From a virus (lineage: Duplodnaviria; Caudoviricetes): a DNA stretch of 30,209 nt. Shown here in pieces: positions 1,487-28,775 of this stretch. A model generated the notes under the pieces. That model worked only from the letters and a program-made list of their open reading frames with translations, was not told where the DNA came from and did no database searches. The stretch spans positions 1 to 30,209 of the IMG/VR virus record IMGVR_UViG_3300027986_000024, one strand, 5' to 3'. The position numbers and the translations under genes were made by a program. Within the stretch, counting starts at the first letter, position 1, and the number at the start of each line of letters is the position of its first letter.

Positions 1487-1602
1487 AGAGCGACTACAGA
1501 CTGATTAACTTCCTATTGGGCGTTTGGTGTGTCAACTCTTTGGCCATTAGCATTCTGATCGGCCTTTGCATAGTTCACCTACTATGGACACCGCACCAAT
1601 GA
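1483..1602 (+). CDS. 39-aa single-pass membrane peptide
   Basis: ATG 1483 overlaps the upstream stop; MKSDYRLINFLLGVWCVNSLAISILIGLCIVHLLWTPHQ is hydrophobic; its stop overlaps ATG 1599 (3' part of the track's 1339..1602 ORF). Confidence 0.55.
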   Translation: MKSDYRLINFLLGVWCVNSLAISILIGLCIVHLLWTPHQ

Positions 1603-2621
1603 TCCCCTGGCTCATCTCCGTCCCCGTCTATGGCGAGCGTTACCGCCGGAACTTCCTCTCCCGCGGCCTTCCCTCCCTCCTCGCCGCGCTAGACGCCGCA
1701 GGCAATCCCCCCACCCGCTTCCTCATCCATACCGACGACAAATGGGCTCTCGCCCGCTACCTCCCCTCCGCTCCGGTCAAGTTCCTCCCTCCGCCTCCCG
1801 GAGCCAACTCTTCCCTCGCCCTCGCCAACGCTGGGCGCATCGCGCTAGCCGAGGCCCTCCCCGGCGAAGCCATCCTCAACCTCAACGCGGACCTCGTCAT
1901 GTCCCGCGAGGCCATCTCCGTCTGCGCTTCGCACTTCGCCGAGGGCAAGCTCTACGTCACCTCTCACACCCTCCGCACCACCCTCGCTGCCCCACCAGTT
2001 GGCGCGACCGCTCTAGACCTTCGCACCTTCGGATGGTTCAACCACCATCGTTGGGTTGACGATTGTACCCTCCGCAGAGGTTACGCAGCGAACCCCGCCG
2101 TGGTCTACCTCCGCTCCCACTTCGGCGATGTCTATGCCCATTGCTTCTCGCTTTCTCCCTTCGCGGTCTTCCCTTCCCGACCAATCACCTTCGCCGGTCC
2201 CTCGATGGACGAATTCATCGACTGCTTTGAGACTTCCGAAGTTCACATCGCCCAGCCCTCCGAGTTCTGCCTTGTCGAGCCCTGCCCGCCTTCGCTCCCT
2301 TACATCCGCCGACGGCTTCGCCTATCCCCTGCGCAGGTAATCCGCAAAGCCCCATTCTACTCCACCCCAATGATGTGCTGGCAGTTCGGGCATCAGATCG
2401 TGATCCGCGGCGTCCCTCGCCTAAGCGAGCGGAAGGTCATCGACGAGATTCTCTCCAAGATCGACCAGAGCAGGCTGCCGACTCGGCTACTTCCGCTTAA
2501 CGAGCAATCTGGCGTAGCCCGCCTTCCCCCTTCCCTCTTTAAACTCGCCTTAAGCATCCCCGGGCCGATCCGACGGCTGGTCCCGAAGGCCATTCGTGAG
2601 GAGGTGATGAAATGGATTTGA
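1599..2621 (+). CDS. putative glycosyltransferase (GT-A-like)
   Basis: N-terminal LISVPVYGERY...LPSLL, FLIHTDD, and an LNADLV DxD-like motif after a hydrophobic strand; amphipathic basic C-terminus; start at coupled ATG 1599. Confidence 0.5.
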   Translation: MIPWLISVPVYGERYRRNFLSRGLPSLLAALDAAGNPPTRFLIHTDDKWALARYLPSAPVKFLPPPPGANSSLALANAGRIALAEALPGEAILNLNADLVMSREAISVCASHFAEGKLYVTSHTLRTTLAAPPVGATALDLRTFGWFNHHRWVDDCTLRRGYAANPAVVYLRSHFGDVYAHCFSLSPFAVFPSRPITFAGPSMDEFIDCFETSEVHIAQPSEFCLVEPCPPSLPYIRRRLRLSPAQVIRKAPFYSTPMMCWQFGHQIVIRGVPRLSERKVIDEILSKIDQSRLPTRLLPLNEQSGVARLPPSLFKLALSIPGPIRRLVPKAIREEVMKWI

Positions 2622-3583
2622 CCATCGCCGCCTACGACCAAGCCGAAGCGCAAGCTAGGCTGACCGCCCCCTATCCAGTCATTAGAGCATTCACTCCGAC
2701 CCACTTCCAACTCTGCGGCTTCCCCACCCGCGTCACTGAGGAGATCGAACTCCGACGCTACGCGGATATCATGGGGGAGAACACTCCAAGGGCGGAGTTG
2801 GTGGAGAAGGCGAGGTTCTCTCAGAAGGAAGCAGTATTGATCCACGACATGCAGAAGGGTGTTGAATTCCTTACAAGGAAACTATTCGATAATCCTGTCT
2901 CTCCTTACACCTCTCTCTTTGGCCCAATCACACTCGTTCGAGCAATTCAATACTTTGCTGAATTGCACTCACGCAAGTTAATGGTTATGGACATTAGTGC
3001 TGGCGCTGGCTACCTCTCAGCCTACTTATCTGGCCTTGGCCACAAGCTGATTGTAACCGAAGTGACCCAAGCTCTGTATCTTTGGCAAAACCGCCTATTG
3101 CACCATCTTCACCTTGACGAGTGGGCTTTACCATCCAAACTTACAAGAGATGACCGTATCTTGCATATGCCATGGTGGCACTTCGGCAACCTTTACAATA
3201 TTCACCATTCACCTCAATTCGTTGACATCGTCATCTGCGACGCAGCCCTCGGCGAGATGGACCCCTGGGCCTTTCGCTATACCCTTCATCTCGCGAAGGA
3301 CCTCCTCGCGTCCTCGACCGTCGGCTGCCTGCTCTACACCAACGTTGGGGAGCAACGCGCGCAGACCGAGAAGCAAGTCCTTGGCTACGCAATGGAACTT
3401 GGATTCAAAGTCTTCCACCTCTCCGGCGTCACCATCCTCTGCCCCTACCGGCCCAAGCTCCCTCGCTCCTTCCCGCCCCTTGGCGGCCCAGCCGCCCTTC
3501 GCATCCCCGACTTCCTCTCCTTCGACAAGTCAAAGCTGATGGAGAGCTACGAGTTCTGTGATTACATCAATGTTGGGAGGTAA
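2612..3583 (+). CDS. class I SAM-dependent methyltransferase (sugar O-methyltransferase-like)
   Basis: motif I VMDISAGAGYL, acidic residue at end of strand 2 (IVTEVT), VDIVICDAALGEM; SD GAGGAGG upstream. Confidence 0.7.
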   Translation: MDLTIAAYDQAEAQARLTAPYPVIRAFTPTHFQLCGFPTRVTEEIELRRYADIMGENTPRAELVEKARFSQKEAVLIHDMQKGVEFLTRKLFDNPVSPYTSLFGPITLVRAIQYFAELHSRKLMVMDISAGAGYLSAYLSGLGHKLIVTEVTQALYLWQNRLLHHLHLDEWALPSKLTRDDRILHMPWWHFGNLYNIHHSPQFVDIVICDAALGEMDPWAFRYTLHLAKDLLASSTVGCLLYTNVGEQRAQTEKQVLGYAMELGFKVFHLSGVTILCPYRPKLPRSFPPLGGPAALRIPDFLSFDKSKLMESYEFCDYINVGR

Positions 3584-6694: not shown

Positions 6695-7092
6695 TGCCAG
6701 TTTCAACCTCTCCCCGAGCGTATGATGATTGTTTTGAGCTTTTTGAACAGGCTCTATCCGCTCCAAAGGGCATTCGTAAGCGCGCTCCCAGCGCAGGCAA
6801 GGCTAAGAATCTCGTCTCCCGCCTTCACAAGGCTAGACAAATCCATCGCTTGGAGATGACTGCCCTTCCACCAGACAATCCAGACTACGGTATCTCTCCA
6901 TACGATAAACTCGTTTGCTCATTTCGAGAGGTTGATGACTCATGGTGGGTCTACATTGAACCGCGCTTACTTGATGGAGAAGTCGAAGAACTTGGAGGGG
7001 AGGTAGTTGAACTTCCAAAAGCAGCGCCACCAACACCGAGGAGACTCTCAATTAAAGACATCAAACGTAGAAAACTCGGCGCTGCTGAGTGA
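6694..7092 (+). CDS. hypothetical protein
   Basis: ATG 6694 coupled to the helicase stop (TGATG); ends IKRRKLGAAE. Confidence 0.7.
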   Translation: MPVSTSPRAYDDCFELFEQALSAPKGIRKRAPSAGKAKNLVSRLHKARQIHRLEMTALPPDNPDYGISPYDKLVCSFREVDDSWWVYIEPRLLDGEVEELGGEVVELPKAAPPTPRRLSIKDIKRRKLGAAE

Positions 7093-7385
7093 AGGAGTTC
7101 TGGATGAACGCCTCTCGTGGATGGTGGACCGAAGCTCGCGTAGCGCGGCTACGCCAACTCGATGCCCTCGGCCACTCGGCCTCCGAGATCGCCGAGGCCC
7201 TCGGCACTACCAAGAACGCAGTTATCGGTAAACTCTGGCGTCTGCGTCAAACCCTCCCCTTCAACCCCGAACTCTTCACCGAACAGATGAAGGTAGCCGG
7301 ATGCCCACCCCGCCCCTTGAAGAACCAACCACCAAGGTCACTCTCCTCCTCTTCACCAAAGACTACGAAACCCTCAAACGACTAA
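7089..7385 (+). CDS. gcrA: GcrA-like cell-cycle regulator (N-terminal HTH only)
   Basis: WTEARVARLRQLDALGHSASEIAEALGTTKNAVIGKLWRL matches the GcrA N-terminal consensus WTxERVxxLxxLWxxGxSASQIAxxLGxxRNAVIGKxHRL; start may be ATG 7104 after AAGGAG. Confidence 0.8.
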   Translation: MKEFWMNASRGWWTEARVARLRQLDALGHSASEIAEALGTTKNAVIGKLWRLRQTLPFNPELFTEQMKVAGCPPRPLKNQPPRSLSSSSPKTTKPSND

Positions 7386-8121: not shown

Positions 8122-9089
8122 CCGAACCCGCCCCCTCCCCCTTCCTCCCCGGAACTCGCCTCCAAGTCGCGTGGGACTCCACCTCCCTCGGAATGCTAAA
8201 GACCTGCCCGCGCCTCTACTACTACACCATCATCGAAGGCTGGACCTCCCGCGAGGAATCCGTCCACCTCCGCTTCGGGATCGAATACCATGCCGCGCTT
8301 CAAGATTACGATCTCTCGCGAGCCGCCGGTATCACCCATAATGACGCCCTACATGATGTCATTCGGGAGCTTCTACTACGCACGGCAGACTTCGACCCGG
8401 ACCACAAAAGTAAAACACGGGAGAGTCTGGTACGCACAGTTGTTTGGTATCTGGATCAGTTTAAAAACGATCCAGCGGAGACGGTGATCTTGAGCGATGG
8501 GAAACCTGCGGTCGAGCAGAGCTTTCGGTTTGAGTTGGATTGGGGGCCGCCCGAGAAGTTAATAACTGACTACGTTATTGGTGGTGCAAGTGCGGCCGTT
8601 GACATCCACTATATCCTCTGCGGCCACCTCGACCGCCTCGTCCGCTACAACGACGAACTCTTCGTGATGGATCGAAAGACCACCACTTGGACCCTCGGCG
8701 CGAGTTACTTCGCCCAATACGAACCGCACAATCAAATGACCCTTTACACTCTCGCCTCCCAGATCGTCCTCGGGACCGCTGTCAAAGGCGTCATCATCGA
8801 CGCGGCGAGGATAGCCGAATCCACCTCCGACTTCGCGCGCGGCTTCACCTTTCGCTCGCAGGACCAACTCGAAGAGTGGCTCAACGATCTCCACTATTGG
8901 TTCGCCCTCGCCGAGCAATACGCGACGATTGGGATTTGGCCGATGAATGACGTTGCCTGTGACAAATTCGGCGGATGTAAGTTTCGTTCCGTCTGTTCCA
9001 AGTCTCCCTCAGTCCGCCAGCGATTTCTGGAGGGAACCTTTACGAAACTAGAGGAAAGTGCCAAATGGAATCCTTTGCGCCCGCGTTGA
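8118..9089 (+). CDS. PD-(D/E)XK exonuclease, Cas4/AddB-like
   Basis: N-terminal CPR, FGIEYHAAL, VEQSF, GHLDRL, VMDRKTT, QMTLY, C-terminal C-x5-C-x5-C (Fe-S-type Cys set). Confidence 0.9.
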   Translation: MTEPAPSPFLPGTRLQVAWDSTSLGMLKTCPRLYYYTIIEGWTSREESVHLRFGIEYHAALQDYDLSRAAGITHNDALHDVIRELLLRTADFDPDHKSKTRESLVRTVVWYLDQFKNDPAETVILSDGKPAVEQSFRFELDWGPPEKLITDYVIGGASAAVDIHYILCGHLDRLVRYNDELFVMDRKTTTWTLGASYFAQYEPHNQMTLYTLASQIVLGTAVKGVIIDAARIAESTSDFARGFTFRSQDQLEEWLNDLHYWFALAEQYATIGIWPMNDVACDKFGGCKFRSVCSKSPSVRQRFLEGTFTKLEESAKWNPLRPR

Positions 9090-9454
9090 GTGAAACCACT
9101 TACCAACGATGTTTGGAGAAGATCATTCCAGAGCCCAATTCAGGCTGTTGGCTTTGGTTTGGTGCAACAAACAAGAAAGGCTACGGGCACATAAGAGCCA
9201 ATGGAGTGTGGTGGTTAATTCATCGGTTCATGTACACATATCATAAAGGCCCCATTCCGAAAGGAGAGGTGATAAGGCACACTTGTGATAATAGCAGTTG
9301 CGCTAATCCAGACCATCTATTGGCCGGGAGTGCTATGGAGAACGTATTGGACCAGATTAGAAGAGGCCGGTTCAAGCCTCGGCAGGGAATCTGCAAGCCG
9401 GTTGAATTCTACATTGAGAGGAACGAGGAATGGCGGAAGCTGCTAAGCCGATGA
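9065..9454 (+). CDS. HNH homing-type endonuclease
   Basis: GCWLW..GYG..HR..HTCDNSSCANPDHL..EN; start may be TTG 9086 overlapping the nuclease stop. Confidence 0.9.
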   Translation: MESFAPALSETTYQRCLEKIIPEPNSGCWLWFGATNKKGYGHIRANGVWWLIHRFMYTYHKGPIPKGEVIRHTCDNSSCANPDHLLAGSAMENVLDQIRRGRFKPRQGICKPVEFYIERNEEWRKLLSR

Positions 9455-10451: not shown

Positions 10452-10907
10452 ATGGCCAAACCCGCAACCCAACGCAAGTTTGAATCCGTCCTCGACATGC
10501 CCGCCTCCGCGGTCGAACGTCCAAAGCCCCTCCCTCGCGGTACTTACATCGCCGTTGTCCAGGGGCAACCCCGGTTCGATAAAAACCCAAATACCGGAAC
10601 TCAATTTGCGGAGTTTACTCTCAAACTCCTCCAAGCCCTTGAAGACGTGGACAAGGATGAACTTGAAGCCCAGGGAGGTCTAAAAGAAAGAACCACACGA
10701 GTTCTTTTCTATCTGACCGACGACTCGGTCTACCGGCTCAAGGAATTCCTAGAGCATTGCGGAGTCGATATGGACTCCGATGCCACAATGAGCCAGCTTG
10801 TGGCCGAGACCCCGGGTTGCCAAGTTGGCATTACCATCATCCACAAGCCTAGCAAGGATGGTGATGCGATCTACGCGAATGTAAAGAATACTTTCCGGCC
10901 GGAGTAA
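10452..10907 (+). CDS. putative ssDNA-binding protein (DUF669-like OB fold)
   Basis: PKPLPRGTYIAVV N-terminal motif, C-terminal YANVK; usual position downstream of the NTPase. Confidence 0.7.
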   Translation: MAKPATQRKFESVLDMPASAVERPKPLPRGTYIAVVQGQPRFDKNPNTGTQFAEFTLKLLQALEDVDKDELEAQGGLKERTTRVLFYLTDDSVYRLKEFLEHCGVDMDSDATMSQLVAETPGCQVGITIIHKPSKDGDAIYANVKNTFRPE

Positions 10908-10913
10908 CCGACC

Positions 10914-11087
10914 GTGAAGGAGGACGGGAGGTTCACCATTACTCTAGTCGAACTGGAGGGCCATCCCGTCCTCCGAATTTCATCAGACGGCGTAACACAC
11001 GAGTACTGGCTTAACGAAGGTCAGGCCAATCTCCTAATCCACCAACTTGTGAATTGGAGAACTCGATGTTCAAGATTGCCCTTATAG
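10914..11087 (+). CDS. possible 57-aa hypothetical protein (not in ORF track)
   Basis: GTG 10914 after GGAG; open to TAG 11085-11087 (MKEDGRFTITLVELEGHPVLRISSDG...). Confidence 0.45.
   Translation: MKEDGRFTITLVELEGHPVLRISSDGVTHEYWLNEGQANLLIHQLVNWRTRCSRLPL
10919..10974. repeat. 11-bp perfect inverted repeat enclosing an inner hairpin
   Basis: GGAGGACGGGA (10919-10929) / TCCCGTCCTCC (10964-10974); inner CTCTAGT-CGA-ACTGGAG stem. Confidence 0.8.
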
Positions 11088-12082
11088 GGGAGGCCTGGGG
11101 TGAGGAAGAAGAGAAACAAAGAACGCCTTTTGTCGGCTATTCGGGCCGGGAACTCACCAACCTCCTCTCCGAAGCCGGAATCCACCGCGCCGACTGCTTC
11201 CTCACCAACGTCTTCAACATCCGCCCTCCCGGCAACAAAATCGAATTCTTCTGCGGCCCCCGCAGCGAAGCCATCCCGGGTTACCCGTCACTCATTAAGG
11301 GGAAGTTTGTTCGTCGAGACTTCATCCCAGAACTCAATCGACTCGCGGATGAACTTGTACATACAAATCCCAACATTATCATCTGTCTTGGCAATACGGC
11401 TTCATGGGCTCTCCTGGGACGAACTTCGATCTCTAAGCATCGCGGGACCACAGAGGTTTCCACTCATACAGTTACAGGCTATAAAGTTCTCCCGACGTAC
11501 CACCCGGCCGCGGTAGTACGGCAATGGGAGTTGAGACCTGTTACGATCCTCGATTTGATGAAGGCGAAGGAAGAGAGCGAGTTCCCGGAAGTACGGCGGC
11601 CAAAGAGAGAAATCTGGATTGAGCCAACCTTGGAGGACCTTTATGAGTTCGAGCGACAGTACATCGAAGGAGCTAAACTCCTTTCTATTGATATTGAAAC
11701 AAGCGGCAACCAGATTACCTGCATTGGATTTGCATCCTCTCCCGAAGTTGGAATCGTCATTCCGTTCACTGACAGTAGAAGAAAGAACCGAGATTATTGG
11801 GGTTCTGCTGAGGCTGAACTCAGAGCTTGGAATTTTGTTAAGCAGGTTCTATCAAAACCATTACCGCGTAAGCTTTTCCAAAACGGCCTCTACGACATCG
11901 CCTTCCTCTGGCGAGCCTACGGAATAAAAGTCCTTGGAGCGGAACACGACACGATGTTGCTTCATCACTCTCTCCAACCCGAATCCCTCAAAGGACTTGG
12001 CTTCCTCGGCTCAATCTACACCGATGAGGGGAGTTGGAAGACGATGCGAGCGAGGGCTACAACAATCAAGTCCGACGAATGA
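11066..12082 (+). CDS. uracil-DNA glycosylase (family 4-like) domain fused to the N-terminal part of a DnaQ-like 3'-5' exonuclease
   Basis: UDG motifs IGEAWGEEE..PFVGYSG, FLTNV, LGNTA, TYHPAA; then ExoI SIDIETSG and ExoII FQNGLYDI, HDTMLLHH..L; ATG 11066 after GGAGA. Confidence 0.88.
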   Translation: MFKIALIGEAWGEEEEKQRTPFVGYSGRELTNLLSEAGIHRADCFLTNVFNIRPPGNKIEFFCGPRSEAIPGYPSLIKGKFVRRDFIPELNRLADELVHTNPNIIICLGNTASWALLGRTSISKHRGTTEVSTHTVTGYKVLPTYHPAAVVRQWELRPVTILDLMKAKEESEFPEVRRPKREIWIEPTLEDLYEFERQYIEGAKLLSIDIETSGNQITCIGFASSPEVGIVIPFTDSRRKNRDYWGSAEAELRAWNFVKQVLSKPLPRKLFQNGLYDIAFLWRAYGIKVLGAEHDTMLLHHSLQPESLKGLGFLGSIYTDEGSWKTMRARATTIKSDE

Positions 12083-12266
12083 AGCGCCGCAAACACTCTG
12101 ACCGACGTAACTGGGAGAACTGCCCACGTTGTGGGGCCAAACTCCACAAGTACACATGCAAGCAATGTGGGTACTCTGCACCAGCATGGTGGGAGCCAGA
12201 ACCAACTAAGCAACCAACAGAATGTGGGCGTGTGATCCCACGTCTTAGCGACGAAGACGAATGAAG
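12074..12266 (+). repeat. 11-bp direct repeat GACGAATGAAG flanking an inserted minigene
   Basis: identical at 12074-12084 and 12256-12266; each copy contains an ATGA stop/start overlap. Confidence 0.85.
12079..12264 (+). CDS. 61-aa zinc-ribbon minigene
   Basis: MKRRKHSDRRNWENCPRCGAKLHKYTCKQCGY...; CxxC-x8-CxxC; ATGA coupling at both ends. Confidence 0.65.
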   Translation: MKRRKHSDRRNWENCPRCGAKLHKYTCKQCGYSAPAWWEPEPTKQPTECGRVIPRLSDEDE

Positions 12267-13787
12267 ATCATCCGCACCGACGAGGCCAGTCCACAGGACC
12301 TCTCTCTTTGGGAGCGCGAGCAAGTCTACAACGGCCTCGACTGCTGTGTGACCGCGGAGGTCCTTGAAGCTCTCCTCCCCCAACTCGATAACCACACCGC
12401 CGCCACCTACAACTTCTCCCGCGAACTGCAAGGTCCCGTCCTCGAAATGCGCCTCCGCGGTGTGTTGATAGATCAAGCCCGAAAGGAGCAAGTCATCAAT
12501 GAATACTATTCCCAACTCGACATCCTCTCCTCCCAACTTGAACGAATTGTTGGCGAAGGTCTTGGAGTTTGGGATTTCAACTGGAGATCAAATAAGGATT
12601 TGCATCACGTCTTCTACGATGTCTTGGGAATCCCTCCCATTCGACGAGGCGGACGTGCGACGGTTAATCGAGACGCTCTTGAGAAGCTCGAGAGTTACTT
12701 CGCCGCAAGCCAAATCGTCAAGCATATCCTCGCAATGCGAGACCTCGGAAAGAAGATCGGGATGCTCAGAACTGAAATCGATCCCGATGGCCGTATGCGC
12801 ACGTCTTACAACATTGCTGGAACCACCACCGGTCGCCTCTCAAGTAGTTTTTCGGAGTTTGGGACCGGAACCAATTTACAAAATATTGAGGAGTCCCTCA
12901 GGTCGGTATTCGTTGCTGATAGAGGAATGAAGCTGGCCTATCTCGATGCAGAACAAGGAGAATCCCGTGTCGTCGGAGCAATCGAATACAATCTCTTTGG
13001 AGATGATAAGTACCTTAACGCTTGCGAGAGTGGCGACCTGCACACTAGCGTTGCCCAGCTCGTTTGGCCCAGCTTGGGGTGGGTGGGCAACCCTGAACAA
13101 GATCGAAAGCTCGCTGAGCAACCTTTCTATCGACATTACGATAGGCGATTCATGTGTAAGAAGATTGGTCACGGAACTAATTACAGAGGTAAACCAAGGA
13201 CACTCGCTGGGCAGGCTAAGATTGAAGTTGGACTTATTGAAGACTTCCAACCCAAATACTTCCGCGCCTTCCCCGCCCACCTCAGATGGCACCGATGGGT
13301 AGCGGAACGCTTAGCCGAGGACGGATATCTAATCACCCTAACCGGCCGCAAGCGCTGGTTCTTCGGGAGGAGGAATGAGGATGCGACTATTCGTGAAGCT
13401 ATTGCCTACGACCCTCAGGGCTCACTTGCTGATATCCTTAATCGAGGAATGCTCCAGGTCTGGAGAGATCGAACTTGTCAGCTTCTCATGCAGATTCATG
13501 ACGCCATTCTCATACAGTATCGAGAGGATCAAGAGGACGAGGTTATACCTCTTGTCTTGGGGCAACTTCGATTTCCAATTGAACTTAAAGGCAGAAGAGA
13601 GTTCTTGATTCCTTACGGAGTAGCCACGGGTTGGAACTGGGGAAAGTTCGATAAGGAGAAGAACCCCGATGGCCTCAAAACCTGGAAGGGTGGGGATCAA
13701 CGGAAGCGGAGCCCGGAAGTGCGAATCATGGATCGAAAGCTTTCTAGCTTTCACCGACAACCTCGAAAGCGCGGAGGTATTTCGTAA
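12261..13787 (+). CDS. polA: family A DNA polymerase (ExoIII motif + polymerase domain)
   Basis: YNGLD (ExoIII), TTTGRLSSS, NLQNI, motif A DAEQGESR, DLH, motif B RFMCKKIGHGTNYRG, TGRKR, motif C QIHDA, GWNWG. Confidence 0.93.
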   Translation: MKIIRTDEASPQDLSLWEREQVYNGLDCCVTAEVLEALLPQLDNHTAATYNFSRELQGPVLEMRLRGVLIDQARKEQVINEYYSQLDILSSQLERIVGEGLGVWDFNWRSNKDLHHVFYDVLGIPPIRRGGRATVNRDALEKLESYFAASQIVKHILAMRDLGKKIGMLRTEIDPDGRMRTSYNIAGTTTGRLSSSFSEFGTGTNLQNIEESLRSVFVADRGMKLAYLDAEQGESRVVGAIEYNLFGDDKYLNACESGDLHTSVAQLVWPSLGWVGNPEQDRKLAEQPFYRHYDRRFMCKKIGHGTNYRGKPRTLAGQAKIEVGLIEDFQPKYFRAFPAHLRWHRWVAERLAEDGYLITLTGRKRWFFGRRNEDATIREAIAYDPQGSLADILNRGMLQVWRDRTCQLLMQIHDAILIQYREDQEDEVIPLVLGQLRFPIELKGRREFLIPYGVATGWNWGKFDKEKNPDGLKTWKGGDQRKRSPEVRIMDRKLSSFHRQPRKRGGIS

Positions 13788-14853
13788 ATGGACCGCGATC
13801 ACAATCCTCGCCGCGGCGTTGGAACAAAAGACCTGGATCACCACCTCCGACCGACTTTACCCAAACCTCTATACTATCCTAGTTGGACATCCTGGTGTCG
13901 GGAAAACCCGTACTATTATGTCAGGACGCAAATTCCTCGCGGAGTTACCAGAGTTCCATATCGCCCCGACTTCTATGAAGATGGCGTCCCTTGTCGATGC
14001 CCTTCTTGCAGCCAAGCGGACTATTATCGCTTTGCCGGAGCCAGCTATGGAGTACCACTCCATGAGCTTGCTCGTAGACGAGTGGACCGCATTCATGCAC
14101 GCCTTCGACGACGAGTTAGTCGGTGGGCTCACCACCTTCTACGACGTGGTGGTTCCATATGAGCATCATCGAAGGGGTAAAGACATTCGCATTAAGATAC
14201 CCCGGCCCCAGCTTTCTATCCTTGCAGGTTCCACCCCTAGTAATCTCATTAAGTTTATGCCTGAGGGCGCTTGGGATCAGGGCTTCACTTCTCGTGTTCT
14301 TCTTATATATTCTGATGAACGCTTTGTTGGTGACGACTTTGCTCAGACGACGCGGGACCTTCCGGAGGAAATGATCTACGATCTAAAGCTGATCTACGCC
14401 CTACAGGGCGAGTTCCAAATCTCAAAGGAGTACCGCGAACTTGTCAACGCGTGGCGAGCGTCGAATGAGGAACCGAAACCAAGTCATCCCAAGCTTGTCC
14501 ATTATAACACTCGCCGTCGGGCTCATCTTTATAAGCTCTCGATGGTGGCCAGTGTCAATCGCGGCGGTGATCTTGTCCTTCGCGCTGATGACTTTCGCTC
14601 TGCGCTGTTCTGGCTGGGAGAAGCGGAGATGACGATGCCGGCGATATTTGAGGCGGGGGCATCGAGCGTGGATGCCCGAGCGATGGATGAGTTAGTTGAT
14701 TGGTTACGAACTCAAAAGGGCCCAGTGCCCCAGCATCGGCTCATCCACCGCGCAACGAGGTTGTTCCCGCTGCACGCGGTTACGAAGGTGATTGATCTAC
14801 TGCATCTAGCTGGAAGAATTCAGAAGTCGAATGACGGCTTCACCGCTACTTAG
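13669..14853 (+). CDS. DUF3987-like AAA+ ATPase, probable replicative helicase
   Basis: YPNLYTILVGHPGVGKT (Walker A), LLVDEW (Walker B), LSILAGSTP, GFTSR; own SD TAAGGAG; overlaps the pol 3' end by 119 nt. Confidence 0.75.
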   Translation: MASKPGRVGINGSGARKCESWIESFLAFTDNLESAEVFRKWTAITILAAALEQKTWITTSDRLYPNLYTILVGHPGVGKTRTIMSGRKFLAELPEFHIAPTSMKMASLVDALLAAKRTIIALPEPAMEYHSMSLLVDEWTAFMHAFDDELVGGLTTFYDVVVPYEHHRRGKDIRIKIPRPQLSILAGSTPSNLIKFMPEGAWDQGFTSRVLLIYSDERFVGDDFAQTTRDLPEEMIYDLKLIYALQGEFQISKEYRELVNAWRASNEEPKPSHPKLVHYNTRRRAHLYKLSMVASVNRGGDLVLRADDFRSALFWLGEAEMTMPAIFEAGASSVDARAMDELVDWLRTQKGPVPQHRLIHRATRLFPLHAVTKVIDLLHLAGRIQKSNDGFTAT

Positions 14854-15199: not shown

Positions 15200-15880
15200 T
15201 TAGAACTTCATACTCACGCCGGTACGGAATCCCGTACCCAGCGCCGGGCACTTCTGCGGTGCGCCAAGACAGATATCACTCGACTGAATTGCCACGCCAG
15301 CGTAGGCGTCGATCACCGCGTTCCAGTTGTTCGAGAGCTTAACCGGGACGAGCATTCCCGGGCCGAACACCCCATAGACCATCCAGGCCTTGCCAGTGGT
15401 CAGCCCGACCTGAGTCGAGATATCATCTTCGTAGATCGCCGCGAAGACATAGCTCTGCGTCGGGCCATCGGCCGTTACCCCAACCGGGAGCACCGGCGAT
15501 GGGATCGCGCCGGTGAAGCTGGTCGGGAGGAACTGCAAGTAAGGCAGCTCCACACCGATCCTCTGGCCAAGATGCGCGGGGCCGGAGAGGGAGAACCCCG
15601 CCGTCCCTGCGTTGAGGTTCTGGAAGTCCGCCAGCCCCTCCACAAACCACGGAATGCCGTTGAACTGGCAGGCGTAGCCCACCACTCCACCGATATCTCC
15701 GCCGACTGCGTAGGTGCCGGAGGTAACGCCGGTTACTTGGTTCGCCGAGCCTTCGGCGTTGATGCCGTAGAATACCCCGCACTTCTGCGGGTATCCGGGG
15801 ATAGGAGCCTTGACCGGTAGGTCCGCTGCCCCCGCCACCCCTGGCATGAGCAACAAAGCTGCGTAGAGTAGCTTTCTCAT
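15200..15880 (-). CDS. outer-membrane beta-barrel protein (Omp25/Omp31/RopB-like N-terminus)
   Basis: Sec signal MRKLLYAALLLMPGVAGA followed by ADLPVKAP; alternating beta strands (GGDIGGVVGY); C-terminal Phe (TGVSMKF). Confidence 0.8.
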   Translation of the reverse strand: MRKLLYAALLLMPGVAGAADLPVKAPIPGYPQKCGVFYGINAEGSANQVTGVTSGTYAVGGDIGGVVGYACQFNGIPWFVEGLADFQNLNAGTAGFSLSGPAHLGQRIGVELPYLQFLPTSFTGAIPSPVLPVGVTADGPTQSYVFAAIYEDDISTQVGLTTGKAWMVYGVFGPGMLVPVKLSNNWNAVIDAYAGVAIQSSDICLGAPQKCPALGTGFRTGVSMKF

Positions 15881-28100: not shown

Positions 28101-28314
28101 GTTGGAAGCCGACAAGCCGAGCGCCAGCGGAGAGGCATTGATTGACGAACATCGTCCCCTGGCGGGTGGAAGCACCACCGCCGGAGTAGTCAACGAAGAA
28201 GTTACGAAGCAGCGCAGCGCCAGCGTGATACTTCTGCACATCCACGCGCGAGCGGAGCTTCGGCGCCCATTCACCGGATGCAAAGGAGGTTTTGATTGTG
28301 GGCTGGGCTGACAT
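25117..28314 (-). CDS. tail tubular protein B (nozzle, gp12-like) with inserted accessory domains
   Basis: SFASGEWAPKLRSRVD..Y...LRNF, FFQERLVLAG, EQELIGWAHH, YVERM, VTLGLAY, QNLPYPATIL. Confidence 0.88.
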   Translation of the reverse strand: MSAQPTIKTSFASGEWAPKLRSRVDVQKYHAGAALLRNFFVDYSGGGASTRQGTMFVNQCLSAGARLVGFQPSTTISYVLEFGQNYIRFYSNGAPILEVATTISGATNANPGVITDNAHGYNNNDWVFISGVGGMTQLNGNYYIVQNVTTNTFTLTDLFGNAIDTTLFGTYTSGGTAQRVYTIASPYITSDLFPNQQTGNPGIKFVQDVTSLIICHPSYPPQILTIDTPDNWSLTAINFGPSVAAPTNVTSATSFSADHWYYRYLVTSVDNNGQESVPSSTTTLGPINYIGSTQGQNSVSWTAAPGAVSYNVYKTSPNFGAAPPTGSQFGFVGNVTGVKFIDAYPGINPDFSQCPPIIASPIVGGMVNRLRLTGNDNYTVVPGVEIAAAPAGGFTATAFASLGVVSVAIVNGGQVSRSTTTGSTLTLPGGIILTIETINGAFAITSVSIANPGSATSGSVPTNPVTALAVSSGSLVTPPTFNLTWDISALTLIQGGFGYTSAPAVTFTSGAATATATVTPISGSGSGAQAAAPVGNPRVPNFFQERLVLAGPNAALQSFYMSQPGSFFNFNTSNPIESDDGIFGSIISDQLNDIKNLLNVPTGLLALTGKGAWLLNGGGGLSTSNPITPSDVAATAQAFNGSSDLAPLKVADNFLFGTFKGSYIREASYNIYANIFTGSDITVLSNHLFFGHFLLDWAWSEEPFKTAWVIREDGIMLSLTYVKEQELIGWAHHDTNGQFTSVCSVVETVASGVVDAVYVIVQRQINGVTVSYVERMADRYFPYGYEDSWSVDCALQTQPLSSNVNPGGLVDYNATVTASTGAVGPGATFTTSDNSSFLAGWVFRFGGGVAVITNVINSSTYTCTITRAFQDINPYTGVPYPAQPFEWTIWQPVTTVSGLTQLVGQSVVGVADGAVVGPLVVSASGTVTLPNAASKVTLGLAYTPQLMTLSLDLGEPTVQSKRKKVPAATLRCADALGLQIGTSFANAVTVKDLQLGAIPSQSNGVAVVNDLVNPSWNPGATLVDARQILDQLWQEPGQLCVQQNLPYPATILGVMPEVVVGDTPK

Positions 28315-28775
28315 CAGGCAAATTCGCCAAGTAGATTATGCCTTGCCGCCTGATAGGCTGCTACTGCCTCTTCTGGCGTATCGAATGACCCTAACTCATG
28401 CCTGATACCATCAACGTCTATTCTTGCCCGATATTTTGCCCCATGTACCTCGTAGCCTCTTGCCTCACTATGCGCTGCCGCAAGGTTCTGCGCATGAGTA
28501 CAAAGACGTAAGTTGGAAATTCTATTATCCCATGGCTTGCCGTTTATGTGGTCGATTCGCTCTGGCATGTAGCCGTATATAAAATACCACGCTAATCTAT
28601 GGCCCAGCCATCTCGTACCGAAAAGACCAATCTGCCAATAGCCTATCGTATTAACTCCACCAGCTAGCTGTCCGAGTTTACTAGGTCCTCGTGGATTATT
28701 ATCCTTGATCCAATAGAAATCTCCAGTTTCAGATTCGTACCGAAGAAACTCCTTTGCTTTCAGTAAGGTGACCAT
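28314..28775 (-). CDS. HNH endonuclease with AP2-like DNA-binding domain
   Basis: HRLAWYFIYG, IDHINGKPWDNRISNLR, YRARI...LGSFDTPEEAVAAY...GEFA. Confidence 0.9.
   Translation of the reverse strand: MVTLLKAKEFLRYESETGDFYWIKDNNPRGPSKLGQLAGGVNTIGYWQIGLFGTRWLGHRLAWYFIYGYMPERIDHINGKPWDNRISNLRLCTHAQNLAAAHSEARGYEVHGAKYRARIDVDGIRHELGSFDTPEEAVAAYQAARHNLLGEFA

What the first reader, a model, noticed from the sequence alone, without database searches (positions are those of the whole stretch)
11066..13787. Family A DNA polymerase split inside its proofreading domain: UDG-ExoI-ExoII subunit plus ExoIII-Pol subunit
Seen: the first gene has a UDG domain, then ExoI (DIE, ~11690-11698) and ExoII (QNGLYD, ~11879-11896), and stops at 12082. 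The pol gene begins with the missing ExoIII motif (YNGLD, 12327-12341). Established: the DnaQ-like active site needs acidic residues from all three Exo motifs, and UDG-PolA fusions such as the SPO1 polymerase are single chains. Inference: proofreading here needs two polypeptides to assemble one active site, i.e. a heterodimeric PolA with a detachable uracil-scanning/processivity subunit. Deleting the intervening minigene still leaves an ATGA stop/start overlap rather than a fusion, so the split looks older than the insertion and is unlikely to be a sequencing error.
Basis: partly seen in the sequence, partly recalled or inferred. Interest (0 to 1): 0.8.

Follow-up and report, generated by a model that had tools for sequence, protein, structure and literature searches.

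The report
Phage polymerase split through proofreading site
A large group of mostly uncultured phages, including this one, encodes its DNA polymerase as two separate genes cut inside the proofreading domain, so two proteins likely lock together to build one error-correcting active site, whereas the split family A polymerases described in print and checked here are cut between domains.

Summary
Observation confirmed. Gene A (11066-12082) carries a family-4-like UDG plus ExoI and ExoII; gene B (12261-13787) opens with ExoIII (Y23 aligns with Klenow Tyr497) and carries the PolA domain. The cut recurs in 233 of 265 loci examined (179 distinct), including cultured Caulobacter phage Kuura. Gaps run from -4 to 1463 nt in all three frames, which argues against error, frameshifting, readthrough or splicing. 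All 175 scorable pairs keep ExoI/II on A and ExoIII on B. Fused relatives are distant (at most 43% identical). Trees suggest one old fission plus a second at the same loop (AU p=0.005). A two-chain model scores 0.92 against 0.02 for the best control, partly expected from likeness to single-chain enzymes. Covariation suggests B's new N-terminal strand clasps A. The 61-codon minigene is optional cargo. The 'detachable' subunit idea is unsupported; an obligate heterodimer fits better. The published PolA split (S-SBP1) and LUZ24 keep ExoIII on the exo chain. The scan noted this split before on two other genomes. Verdict: new variant of a known kind, untested biochemically.

The parts
11066..12082 (+). 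Gene A, 338 aa: family-4-like UDG domain (res 3-169) plus the first part of the DnaQ-like exonuclease (ExoI, ExoII); no ExoIII
   Evidence: AF2 model mean pLDDT 91 matches family-4 UDGs, phiLo UDG-PolA and Klenow
11087..11506 (+). UDG motifs: GEAWGEEE (G8-E15), F22, N48, YHP (H146, P147); the KCRP cysteine of T. maritima UDG is replaced (I52)
   Evidence: N48 and P147 53 of 53, H146 51 of 53, E9 50 of 53
11603..11620 (+). A residues 180-185, first strand of the exonuclease part; predicted antiparallel partner of B residues 2-7
11690..11698 (+). ExoI, D209-I-E211
   Evidence: invariant in 52 of 52 aligned; motif in 175 of 175 scorable loci
11879..11896 (+). ExoII, Q272-N-G-L-Y-D277
12062..12082 (+). 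Clade-conserved tail TIK(R/S)D(E/D)-stop; predicted disordered; in relatives it likely doubles as the ribosome-binding site of the next gene
   Evidence: pLDDT under 50 at 332-338; tail Arg codon AGG in 59% of 123 vs 10% elsewhere
12074..12266 (+). 11-nt direct repeat GACGAATGAAG at 12074-12084 and 12256-12266, bracketing the minigene; local to this genome
   Evidence: 1 of 122 gapped loci has a shared stretch of 10 nt or more
12079..12264 (+). 61-aa Cys-rich zinc-ribbon-like minigene with ATGA overlaps at both ends; optional cargo, a singleton among seam genes
   Evidence: DZR E 2e-5, under cut-off
12261..13787 (+). Gene B, 508 aa: new N-terminal arm (res 1-22), ExoIII helix, and PolA thumb, fingers and palm
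12264..12281 (+). B residues 2-7 (KIIRTD): predicted beta-strand clasp on chain A, with no counterpart in the short linkers of fused relatives
12327..12341 (+). ExoIII, Y23-N-G-L-D27
   Evidence: Y23, N24, G25, D27 53 of 53; aligns with Klenow Tyr497
12945..12968 (+). Pol motif A, D229-AEQGES-R236
13158..13184 (+). Pol motif B, K300-KIG-H304-GTN-Y308; His at the position of E. coli Phe762
   Evidence: H304 53 of 53
13497..13502 (+). Pol motif C, H413-D414
13669..14853 (+). Downstream DUF3987 / phrog_14296 primase-helicase-like gene; same position in fused and split relatives

Best explanation
The phage encodes a UDG-fused family A DNA polymerase as two genes cut in the loop between ExoII and ExoIII, and the two products likely assemble into one obligate heterodimer whose proofreading site would take D209, E211 and D277 from chain A and Y23 and D27 from chain B. 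Shown: the two-gene layout, its recurrence in 233 loci, and conservation of all catalytic residues. Predicted: B's ExoIII helix completes A's exonuclease fold, and B's new N-terminal strand (residues 2-7) pairs antiparallel with A180-185 as a clasp replacing the lost covalent link. Inferred: the genes are co-translated through start/stop overlaps and a ribosome-binding site in A's tail; the seam then behaves as ordinary intergenic space where unrelated small genes come and go. Inferred from the single-chain phiLo and YerA41 enzymes: the UDG domain excises uracil from the template ahead of the polymerase site.
For: Same cut in 233 of 265 loci, 179 distinct; gaps -4 to 1463 nt, frames 82/49/48, stops TGA 101, TAA 55, TAG 22. 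ExoI and ExoII on A and YxxxD on B in 175 of 175 scorable distinct loci, 4 too short to score. Cultured phage Kuura has the same cut with two ORFs between. Two searches for longer forms listed 120 fused proteins each, none above 43% identity to A; the set is at most 34% identical to B. 53 of 53 split pairs form one branch in both the A and B trees, support 99 and 100. Complex score 0.92 vs best control 0.02; the mark was reached by 116 of 157 solved and 2 of 215 mismatched pairs; runs agree in at least 93% of contacts, partner pLDDT at least 87; D209 touches B C28 and the ExoI, ExoII and ExoIII segments all lie in the interface. The best of 338 registers for B2-7 is antiparallel on A180-185, mean z 2.54 vs 0.91-1.59 in 20 shuffled pairings. 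16 of the top 25 covarying pairs fall in the modelled interface, about 7 expected.
Against: No biochemistry, RNA or proteomics. Halves of a split gene tend to pass the complex test by likeness to solved single-chain polymerases. Metal-ligand geometry was not returned, so convergence of the carboxylates is inferred from contact lists. The covariation window B2-7 was chosen after seeing the top pairs, the shuffles do not control for phylogeny, only the top pair (z 8.1) exceeds the shuffled maxima (5.2-6.6), and the sequences overlap those given to the folding model. Split loci were collected by similarity to the window, which favours their forming one branch. 13 loci have an A stop but no B in the DNA held, up to 1213 nt.
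Confidence: 0.85

Rival explanations
1. Chain A is a detachable or exchangeable accessory (uracil scanner or processivity factor) that binds B transiently, so proofreading is switched on by assembly; surplus A works as a free UDG.
For: A is translated first and folds confidently alone (pLDDT 91). The UDG domain (res 1-153) lies outside the listed interface. UDG catalytic residues are conserved. Cargo genes up to 1.4 kb could uncouple the levels of A and B.
Against: The interface is large (236-257 contacts) and includes core exonuclease strands. In B folded alone, residues 21-30 drop to pLDDT 62 and ExoIII is not helical. B always followed A within 1.5 kb wherever both were on the locus.
Confidence: 0.08
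2. The two genes yield one polypeptide by recoding or splicing (readthrough, frameshift, ribosomal bypass, group I intron or split intein).
For: The 11-nt repeat at both junctions looks like matched take-off and landing sites. In 49 of 179 loci the genes abut within -4 to +6 nt.
Against: All three frames and all three stop codons occur. The repeat is seen in 1 of 122 gapped loci, and landing on it meets TGA again. Seam content falls in 104 unrelated clusters. No Rfam match at E up to 1 in 10500-14500. No intein family on A or B. The split forms carry about 35 residues between WK and ExoIII against 9-20 in the fused relatives inspected, with conserved free ends.
Confidence: 0.03
3. The chains act independently: A is a stand-alone UDG with a vestigial exonuclease half, and B is a proofreading-deficient polymerase.
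For: Databases label A as uracil-DNA glycosylase. CCPol is a published PolA that keeps only three exo helices and lacks the rest (PMC10201439, section 32).
Against: D209, E211, D277, Y23 and D27 are invariant across pairs of 57-60% mean column identity; half-sites without a function should decay. Inter-chain covariation and the complex model also argue against it.
Confidence: 0.03
4. Sequencing error or recent pseudogenisation.
For: One relative (L115) has frameshifts, so errors do occur in such data.
Against: 233 loci, a cultured high-titre phage (Kuura; PMC9959647 passages) and an identical Logan contig (possibly the same sample).
Confidence: 0.01

Closest known systems
S-SBP1-like split T7-like PolA of cyanopodoviruses (Czernecki et al. 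2023, PMC10201439)
   Same: Phage PolA made from two adjacent genes by fission; predicted to reassemble into the fold of the uninterrupted enzyme.
   Different: S-SBP1 gp15 keeps ExoI, ExoII and ExoIII (YCIQD) on one chain, so that cut lies between domains. Here it passes through the exonuclease active site, in a different PolA lineage with a UDG domain, and with a variable cargo seam.
LUZ24 (Bruynoghevirus) 'DNA polymerase exonuclease subunit' gp25 plus 'part II' gp34
   Same: Separate exo and pol genes with several unrelated genes between them.
   Different: gp25 ends after ExoIII (YCLQD), so it holds the whole domain. T7-like, no UDG.
Single-chain UDG-PolA: SPO1-like, SP15-like phiLo and YerA41 (Missoury et al. 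2026, PMC13697223), N4-like; also Microcystis phage Mel-JY34 and the Desulfofustis phage
   Same: Domain order UDG-Exo-Pol; UDG catalytic Glu and His kept; A's model matches phiLo 9qhs (E 2e-11).
   Different: They are one polypeptide. SP15-like enzymes are over 1000 aa with large inserts and come from T-modified genomes; 'split' does not occur in that paper's main text. Here there are two chains of 338 and 508 aa, with His at the 762 position.
CCPol-MP of staphylococcal mobile elements (as described in PMC10201439)
   Same: The pol chain starts inside the exonuclease domain and keeps its last helices, which bind a partner.
   Different: The missing exo part (about 110 aa) is not found nearby and the partner MP is an unrelated beta-barrel, so no proofreading site is rebuilt.
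Genes-in-pieces enzymes: Aeh1 NrdA split by mobE, split gp43 PolB of T4-like phages (recalled, not read); chimallivirus split polymerase (PMC13648687, search listing only)
   Same: Functional enzymes assembled from two gene products; for Aeh1 NrdA a composite active site (recalled).
   Different: Different enzyme families. Here homing nucleases are a minority of seam genes (about 16 of 146 ORFs), so a homing origin is possible but not shown.

Membership tests
Family A DNA polymerase | Motifs A, B, C (Asp; Arg-Lys-Tyr; His-Asp) | tested here: met
   D229, R296, K300, H413, D414 invariant; Y308 48 of 53; PF00476 E 1e-36
Family A DNA polymerase | Klenow-like fold | tested here: met
Family A DNA polymerase | Template-directed DNA synthesis | not testable with these tools
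   needs an assay
DnaQ-like (DEDDy) proofreading domain | ExoI DxE, ExoII NxxxD and ExoIII YxxxD all present | tested here: met
   175 of 175 scorable loci, across the two chains
DnaQ-like (DEDDy) proofreading domain | All three motifs on one polypeptide | tested here: not met
   no YxxxD after WK in A in 175 loci
DnaQ-like (DEDDy) proofreading domain | Four carboxylates converge on two metal ions | tested here: inconclusive
   motif segments share the interface and D209 touches B C28; metal geometry was not returned
Family 4 UDG | Motif A GExxGxxE, Phe, Asn, motif B HP | tested here: met
   (HP 164 of 169, GE 161 of 169)
Family 4 UDG | 4Fe-4S cysteine ligands (feature recalled) | tested here: not met
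   KCRP Cys is Ile52 (Leu in 36 of 53) and the protein begins at the first strand; filed as family-4-like
Family 4 UDG | Uracil excision | not testable with these tools
   shown only for phiLo and YerA41 (PMC13697223 section 19)
SPO1/SP15-like UDG-PolA | UDG fused in one chain to Exo and Pol | tested here: not met
   two genes; domain order is the same
S-SBP1/LUZ24-type exo/pol split | Cut after ExoIII, whole exo domain on one chain | tested here: not met
Intron- or split-intein-interrupted polymerase | Intron RNA structure or intein halves at the junction | tested here: inconclusive
   no Rfam match and no intein Pfam; abutting genes in 49 of 179 loci leave no room for an intron; no RNA data

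The most novel reading that the evidence does not exclude
The ExoII-ExoIII loop is a recurrent breakpoint of UDG-PolAs, cut at least twice independently. In this abundant clade a newly evolved beta-strand clasp turned the polymerase into a two-subunit replicase in which the supply of the UDG-Exo subunit sets proofreading and uracil surveillance, giving the phage an assembly-gated fidelity control not described for family A polymerases.
Probability: 0.15. Interest if true: 0.78.

Novelty: new variant of a known kind. Interest (0 to 1): 0.55.

Why it matters
It would be a family A polymerase whose proofreading active site is built from two gene products, in a phage group with over a thousand estimated matches in IMG/VR (about 1300 stretches; the patterns may also catch fused relatives) and a cultured member (Kuura) on which it can be tested now. 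It explains why these genes are mislabelled as a lone UDG and a truncated polymerase. It offers a natural split point and clasp for engineering split or switchable polymerases. A second apparent origin at the same loop makes it a case of convergent gene fission.

Tried and rejected
Ribosomal bypass via the 11-nt repeat: rejected, as the repeat is local (1 of 122; cross-locus control about 0.5% per pair). Internal promoter or terminator at the seam: scan counts equal chance (3 vs 3.2; 4 vs 4.6). Rfam: nothing. Homing-endonuclease origin: 4 of 102 scanned cluster representatives are HNH or EndoVII (about 16 of 146 ORFs by cluster size; the 2 Kuura representatives were left out); others are dNMP kinase, PNKP phosphatase, nucleoside deoxyribosyltransferase, gp5.9-like, DUFs or unknown, so it is neither shown nor excluded. 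A's conserved tail as an interface: residues 329-338 are not in the modelled interface and are disordered; codon bias points to an RBS, though T-I-K conservation is not fully explained. EBPR podovirus 3 and PaMx33 polymerases are single genes. RNA evidence: no RNA holder listed; run X2 covers only 269 nt. The 50%-cluster profile search could not be run, so distant stand-alone UDG-ExoI-ExoII proteins were not surveyed. Literature searches that found no report of this cut: (0 papers); His at 762: (0 papers). Subscription journals are not covered and I read no supplements; those of PMC10201439 could list such sequences.
Full report
Context. The window is 30 kb of a podophage-like genome; a Logan contig of 51,150 bases from a soil metagenome holds the stretch unchanged and may be its source. 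The + strand carries a replication module: UvrD-like helicase, PD-(D/E)XK nuclease, HNH, Sak4-like ATPase, the two polymerase genes and a DUF3987 primase-like gene. Tail, internal virion and lysozyme genes lie on the - strand. A GcrA-like gene suggests an alphaproteobacterial host (inference).

Observation. Gene A has a UDG domain aligned to T. maritima family-4 UDG (E 2e-18), then DIE and QNGLYD, and stops at 12082. Gene B starts at 12261; its Y23 is where the alignment to the Klenow fragment begins, at chain position 174, which is Tyr497 of ExoIII (numbering from my knowledge). The halves tile one PHROG polymerase profile almost without a gap.

The split is old and general. I gathered 265 loci: the window, 7 GenBank phage regions, and IMG/VR, metagenome and GTDB contigs. 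Of these, 233 are cut at this site, 1 at another site, 4 carry ExoIII on the same ORF as A, 1 more is a full-length fusion, 13 have an A stop without B in the DNA held, and 13 are uninformative. The 233 reduce to 179 distinct junctions. Gaps are -4 (19), -1 (16), 0 to 6 (14), 10-99 (5), 100-499 (93) and 500 or more (32, up to 1463); all frames and all stop codons occur. One locus (L107) has a masked run at the junction and one (L115) has frameshifts. In 175 of 175 scorable loci ExoI and ExoII are on A and YxxxD on B; 4 were too short. Cultured Caulobacter phage Kuura has the same cut with two ORFs between, annotated as a hypothetical protein and a DNA polymerase; the passages of its paper that I saw do not mention the split (PMC9959647). 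A profile search lists 120 stand-alone proteins of 335-357 aa at 59-75% identity, apart from the window's own. Two searches for longer forms list only fused proteins of at most 43% identity.

History. With 53 split pairs and 84 fused proteins (thinned from 121), split sequences form one branch in both the pol tree (support 100) and the UDG-Exo tree (99), with Kuura deepest (FastTree). Sampling by similarity favours this result, but no close fused form turned up. Two GTDB contigs (L112, L113; 35% and 27-28% identity) are cut at the same loop yet group with the fused Desulfofustis phage polymerase (support 97-100). Forcing them together with the main clade is rejected (26 rows, AU p=0.005; the group was named after seeing the tree). 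So the loop was likely cut at least twice. Other UDG-PolAs break elsewhere: after ExoIII in MW202554, and in the palm in Vibrio phage VS-ABTNL-3.

The seam. In 124 loci with gaps of 60 nt or more, 146 ORFs fall in 104 clusters, the largest with 6 members, and ORFs fill over 70% of the gap in 103 loci. Of 102 representatives scanned, 4 are HNH or EndoVII nucleases and several are nucleotide-metabolism genes; most are unknown. The window's 61-aa zinc-ribbon-like ORF is a singleton. Its flanking 11-nt repeat is not a family trait. A's tail TIKRD(D/E) uses AGG for Arg in 59% of 123 cases against 10% elsewhere, and the last 20 nt of A pair with an anti-Shine-Dalgarno motif at -5.5 kcal/mol on average against -2.5 for random sites. 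The tail therefore likely serves as the ribosome-binding site for whatever gene follows. The window itself has Ser there and probably relies on its ATGA overlaps.

Mechanism. Folded alone, A is confident except for its last residues; B alone has a poorly ordered ExoIII segment (pLDDT 62 at 21-30). The two-chain model scored 0.92 against 0.02 for the best of 3 controls (mark reached by 116 of 157 solved and 2 of 215 mismatched pairs; contact agreement at least 93%, partner pLDDT at least 87). Such halves can pass from likeness to single-chain enzymes, so this shows compatibility, not binding. The closest contacts put B28-35 against A207, 209, 223, 226, 270-272 and 296, i.e. the ExoIII helix in its usual place. 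B1-7 and A177-188 are also in the interface. Fused relatives have about 9-20 residues between the conserved aromatic-Lys and ExoIII (read by eye); split forms have about 13 plus 22. In 168 paired sequences, 16 of the top 25 covarying pairs lie in the modelled interface (about 7 expected), and the best of 338 registers for B2-7 is antiparallel on A180-185 (mean z 2.54; shuffled best 0.91-1.59). The window was chosen after the fact, phylogeny is not controlled, and single pairs other than the top one are within the shuffled range. I read this as moderate support for a clade-specific beta-strand clasp; the second lineage has only a short head before ExoIII and seems to lack it. The best model is an obligate heterodimer with polymerase, proofreading and probably uracil-excision sites. 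The last rests on conserved E9, E15, F22, N48 and H146 and on phiLo and YerA41, which excise template uracil (PMC13697223; abstract, passages and section 19 read).

Against my own reading: no experiment, no RNA data, and the metal geometry was not inspected.

Comparison with what is known. Czernecki et al. 2023 (PMC10201439; passages and section 32 read) report exo/pol fission in S-SBP1-like cyanophages as the first split PolA. I checked S-SBP1 gp15: it keeps all three Exo motifs, as does LUZ24 gp25. MEP401-type phages are cut in the pol domain (PMC10580990 passages). Flores-Uribe's cyanophages have a split T7-like polymerase whose site is not given in the passages seen (10.1101/325100). CCPol starts inside the exo domain but lacks the other half. 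Searches found no paper on a cut between ExoII and ExoIII in the open library; supplements were not read. Earlier notes of this scan describe the same split on two other genomes and a similar one in a marine phage; these are unchecked AI notes, not evidence.

Side observation. H304 sits at the E. coli 762 position, is invariant in 53 of 53, and is His in 83 of the 86 fused relatives where the motif matched (35 of 121 unmatched). A 2026 preprint lists only Tyr, Phe and Leu at this site (10.64898/2026.05.20.726624 passages).

Verdict. Real, conserved, and most likely a two-chain polymerase with a composite proofreading site: a new variant of a known kind, interest 0.55.

Noticed in passing
window 13170-13172 (B H304): His at the E. 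coli Phe762 / T7 Tyr526 position, invariant in the split clade and present in 83 of 86 matched fused UDG-PolAs; the papers checked list only Phe, Tyr and Leu.
   Followed up: partly
L112:4932-7872 and L113:4941-7653: Second lineage cut at the same ExoII-ExoIII loop, grouping with the fused Desulfofustis phage polymerase; tails NIKDES and DIKENS resemble TIKRDE.
   Followed up: yes
L013:1727-4364 (MW202554): UDG-PolA cut after ExoIII, with a small CxxC zinc-ribbon ORF in the gap (NrdR-like by eye, recalled).
   Followed up: partly
L012:3956-7090 (Vibrio phage VS-ABTNL-3): UDG-PolA interrupted in the palm at NLQNLPK by a 184-aa gene; split or intron not resolved.
   Followed up: no
window 1566-3583: Adjacent GT-A-like glycosyltransferase (351 aa) and SAM methyltransferase-like (323 aa) genes by ESM Atlas, no Pfam hit; may modify host surface or DNA.
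   Followed up: partly
window 7089-7385 and 15200-15880: GcrA-like regulator (Pfam E 1e-9) and an outer-membrane-protein-like gene starting AADLPVKAP (Rhizobiales-type by recall); both point to an alphaproteobacterial host.
   Followed up: no
window 9065-9454 and 28314-28775: Two free-standing HNH endonuclease genes, one in the replication module and one between tail genes.
   Followed up: no
L115 (contig of 4.7 Mb, Actinomycetota MAG): Split-clade polymerase with several frameshifts near the end of a chromosome-sized contig: prophage, misjoin or long-read error.
   Followed up: no
L107:3743-5008, L112:3699-4931, L113:3540-4937; also L013, L014: ParB-like / methyltransferase-like gene directly upstream of the UDG-Exo gene in several relatives; absent at that place in the window.
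   Followed up: no
L089:4756-4998, L061:1471-2025, L109:6533-7054, L006:6020-6406: Seam cargo includes a T7 gp5.9-like RecBCD inhibitor, dNMP kinase, PNKP phosphatase and nucleoside deoxyribosyltransferase.
   Followed up: no
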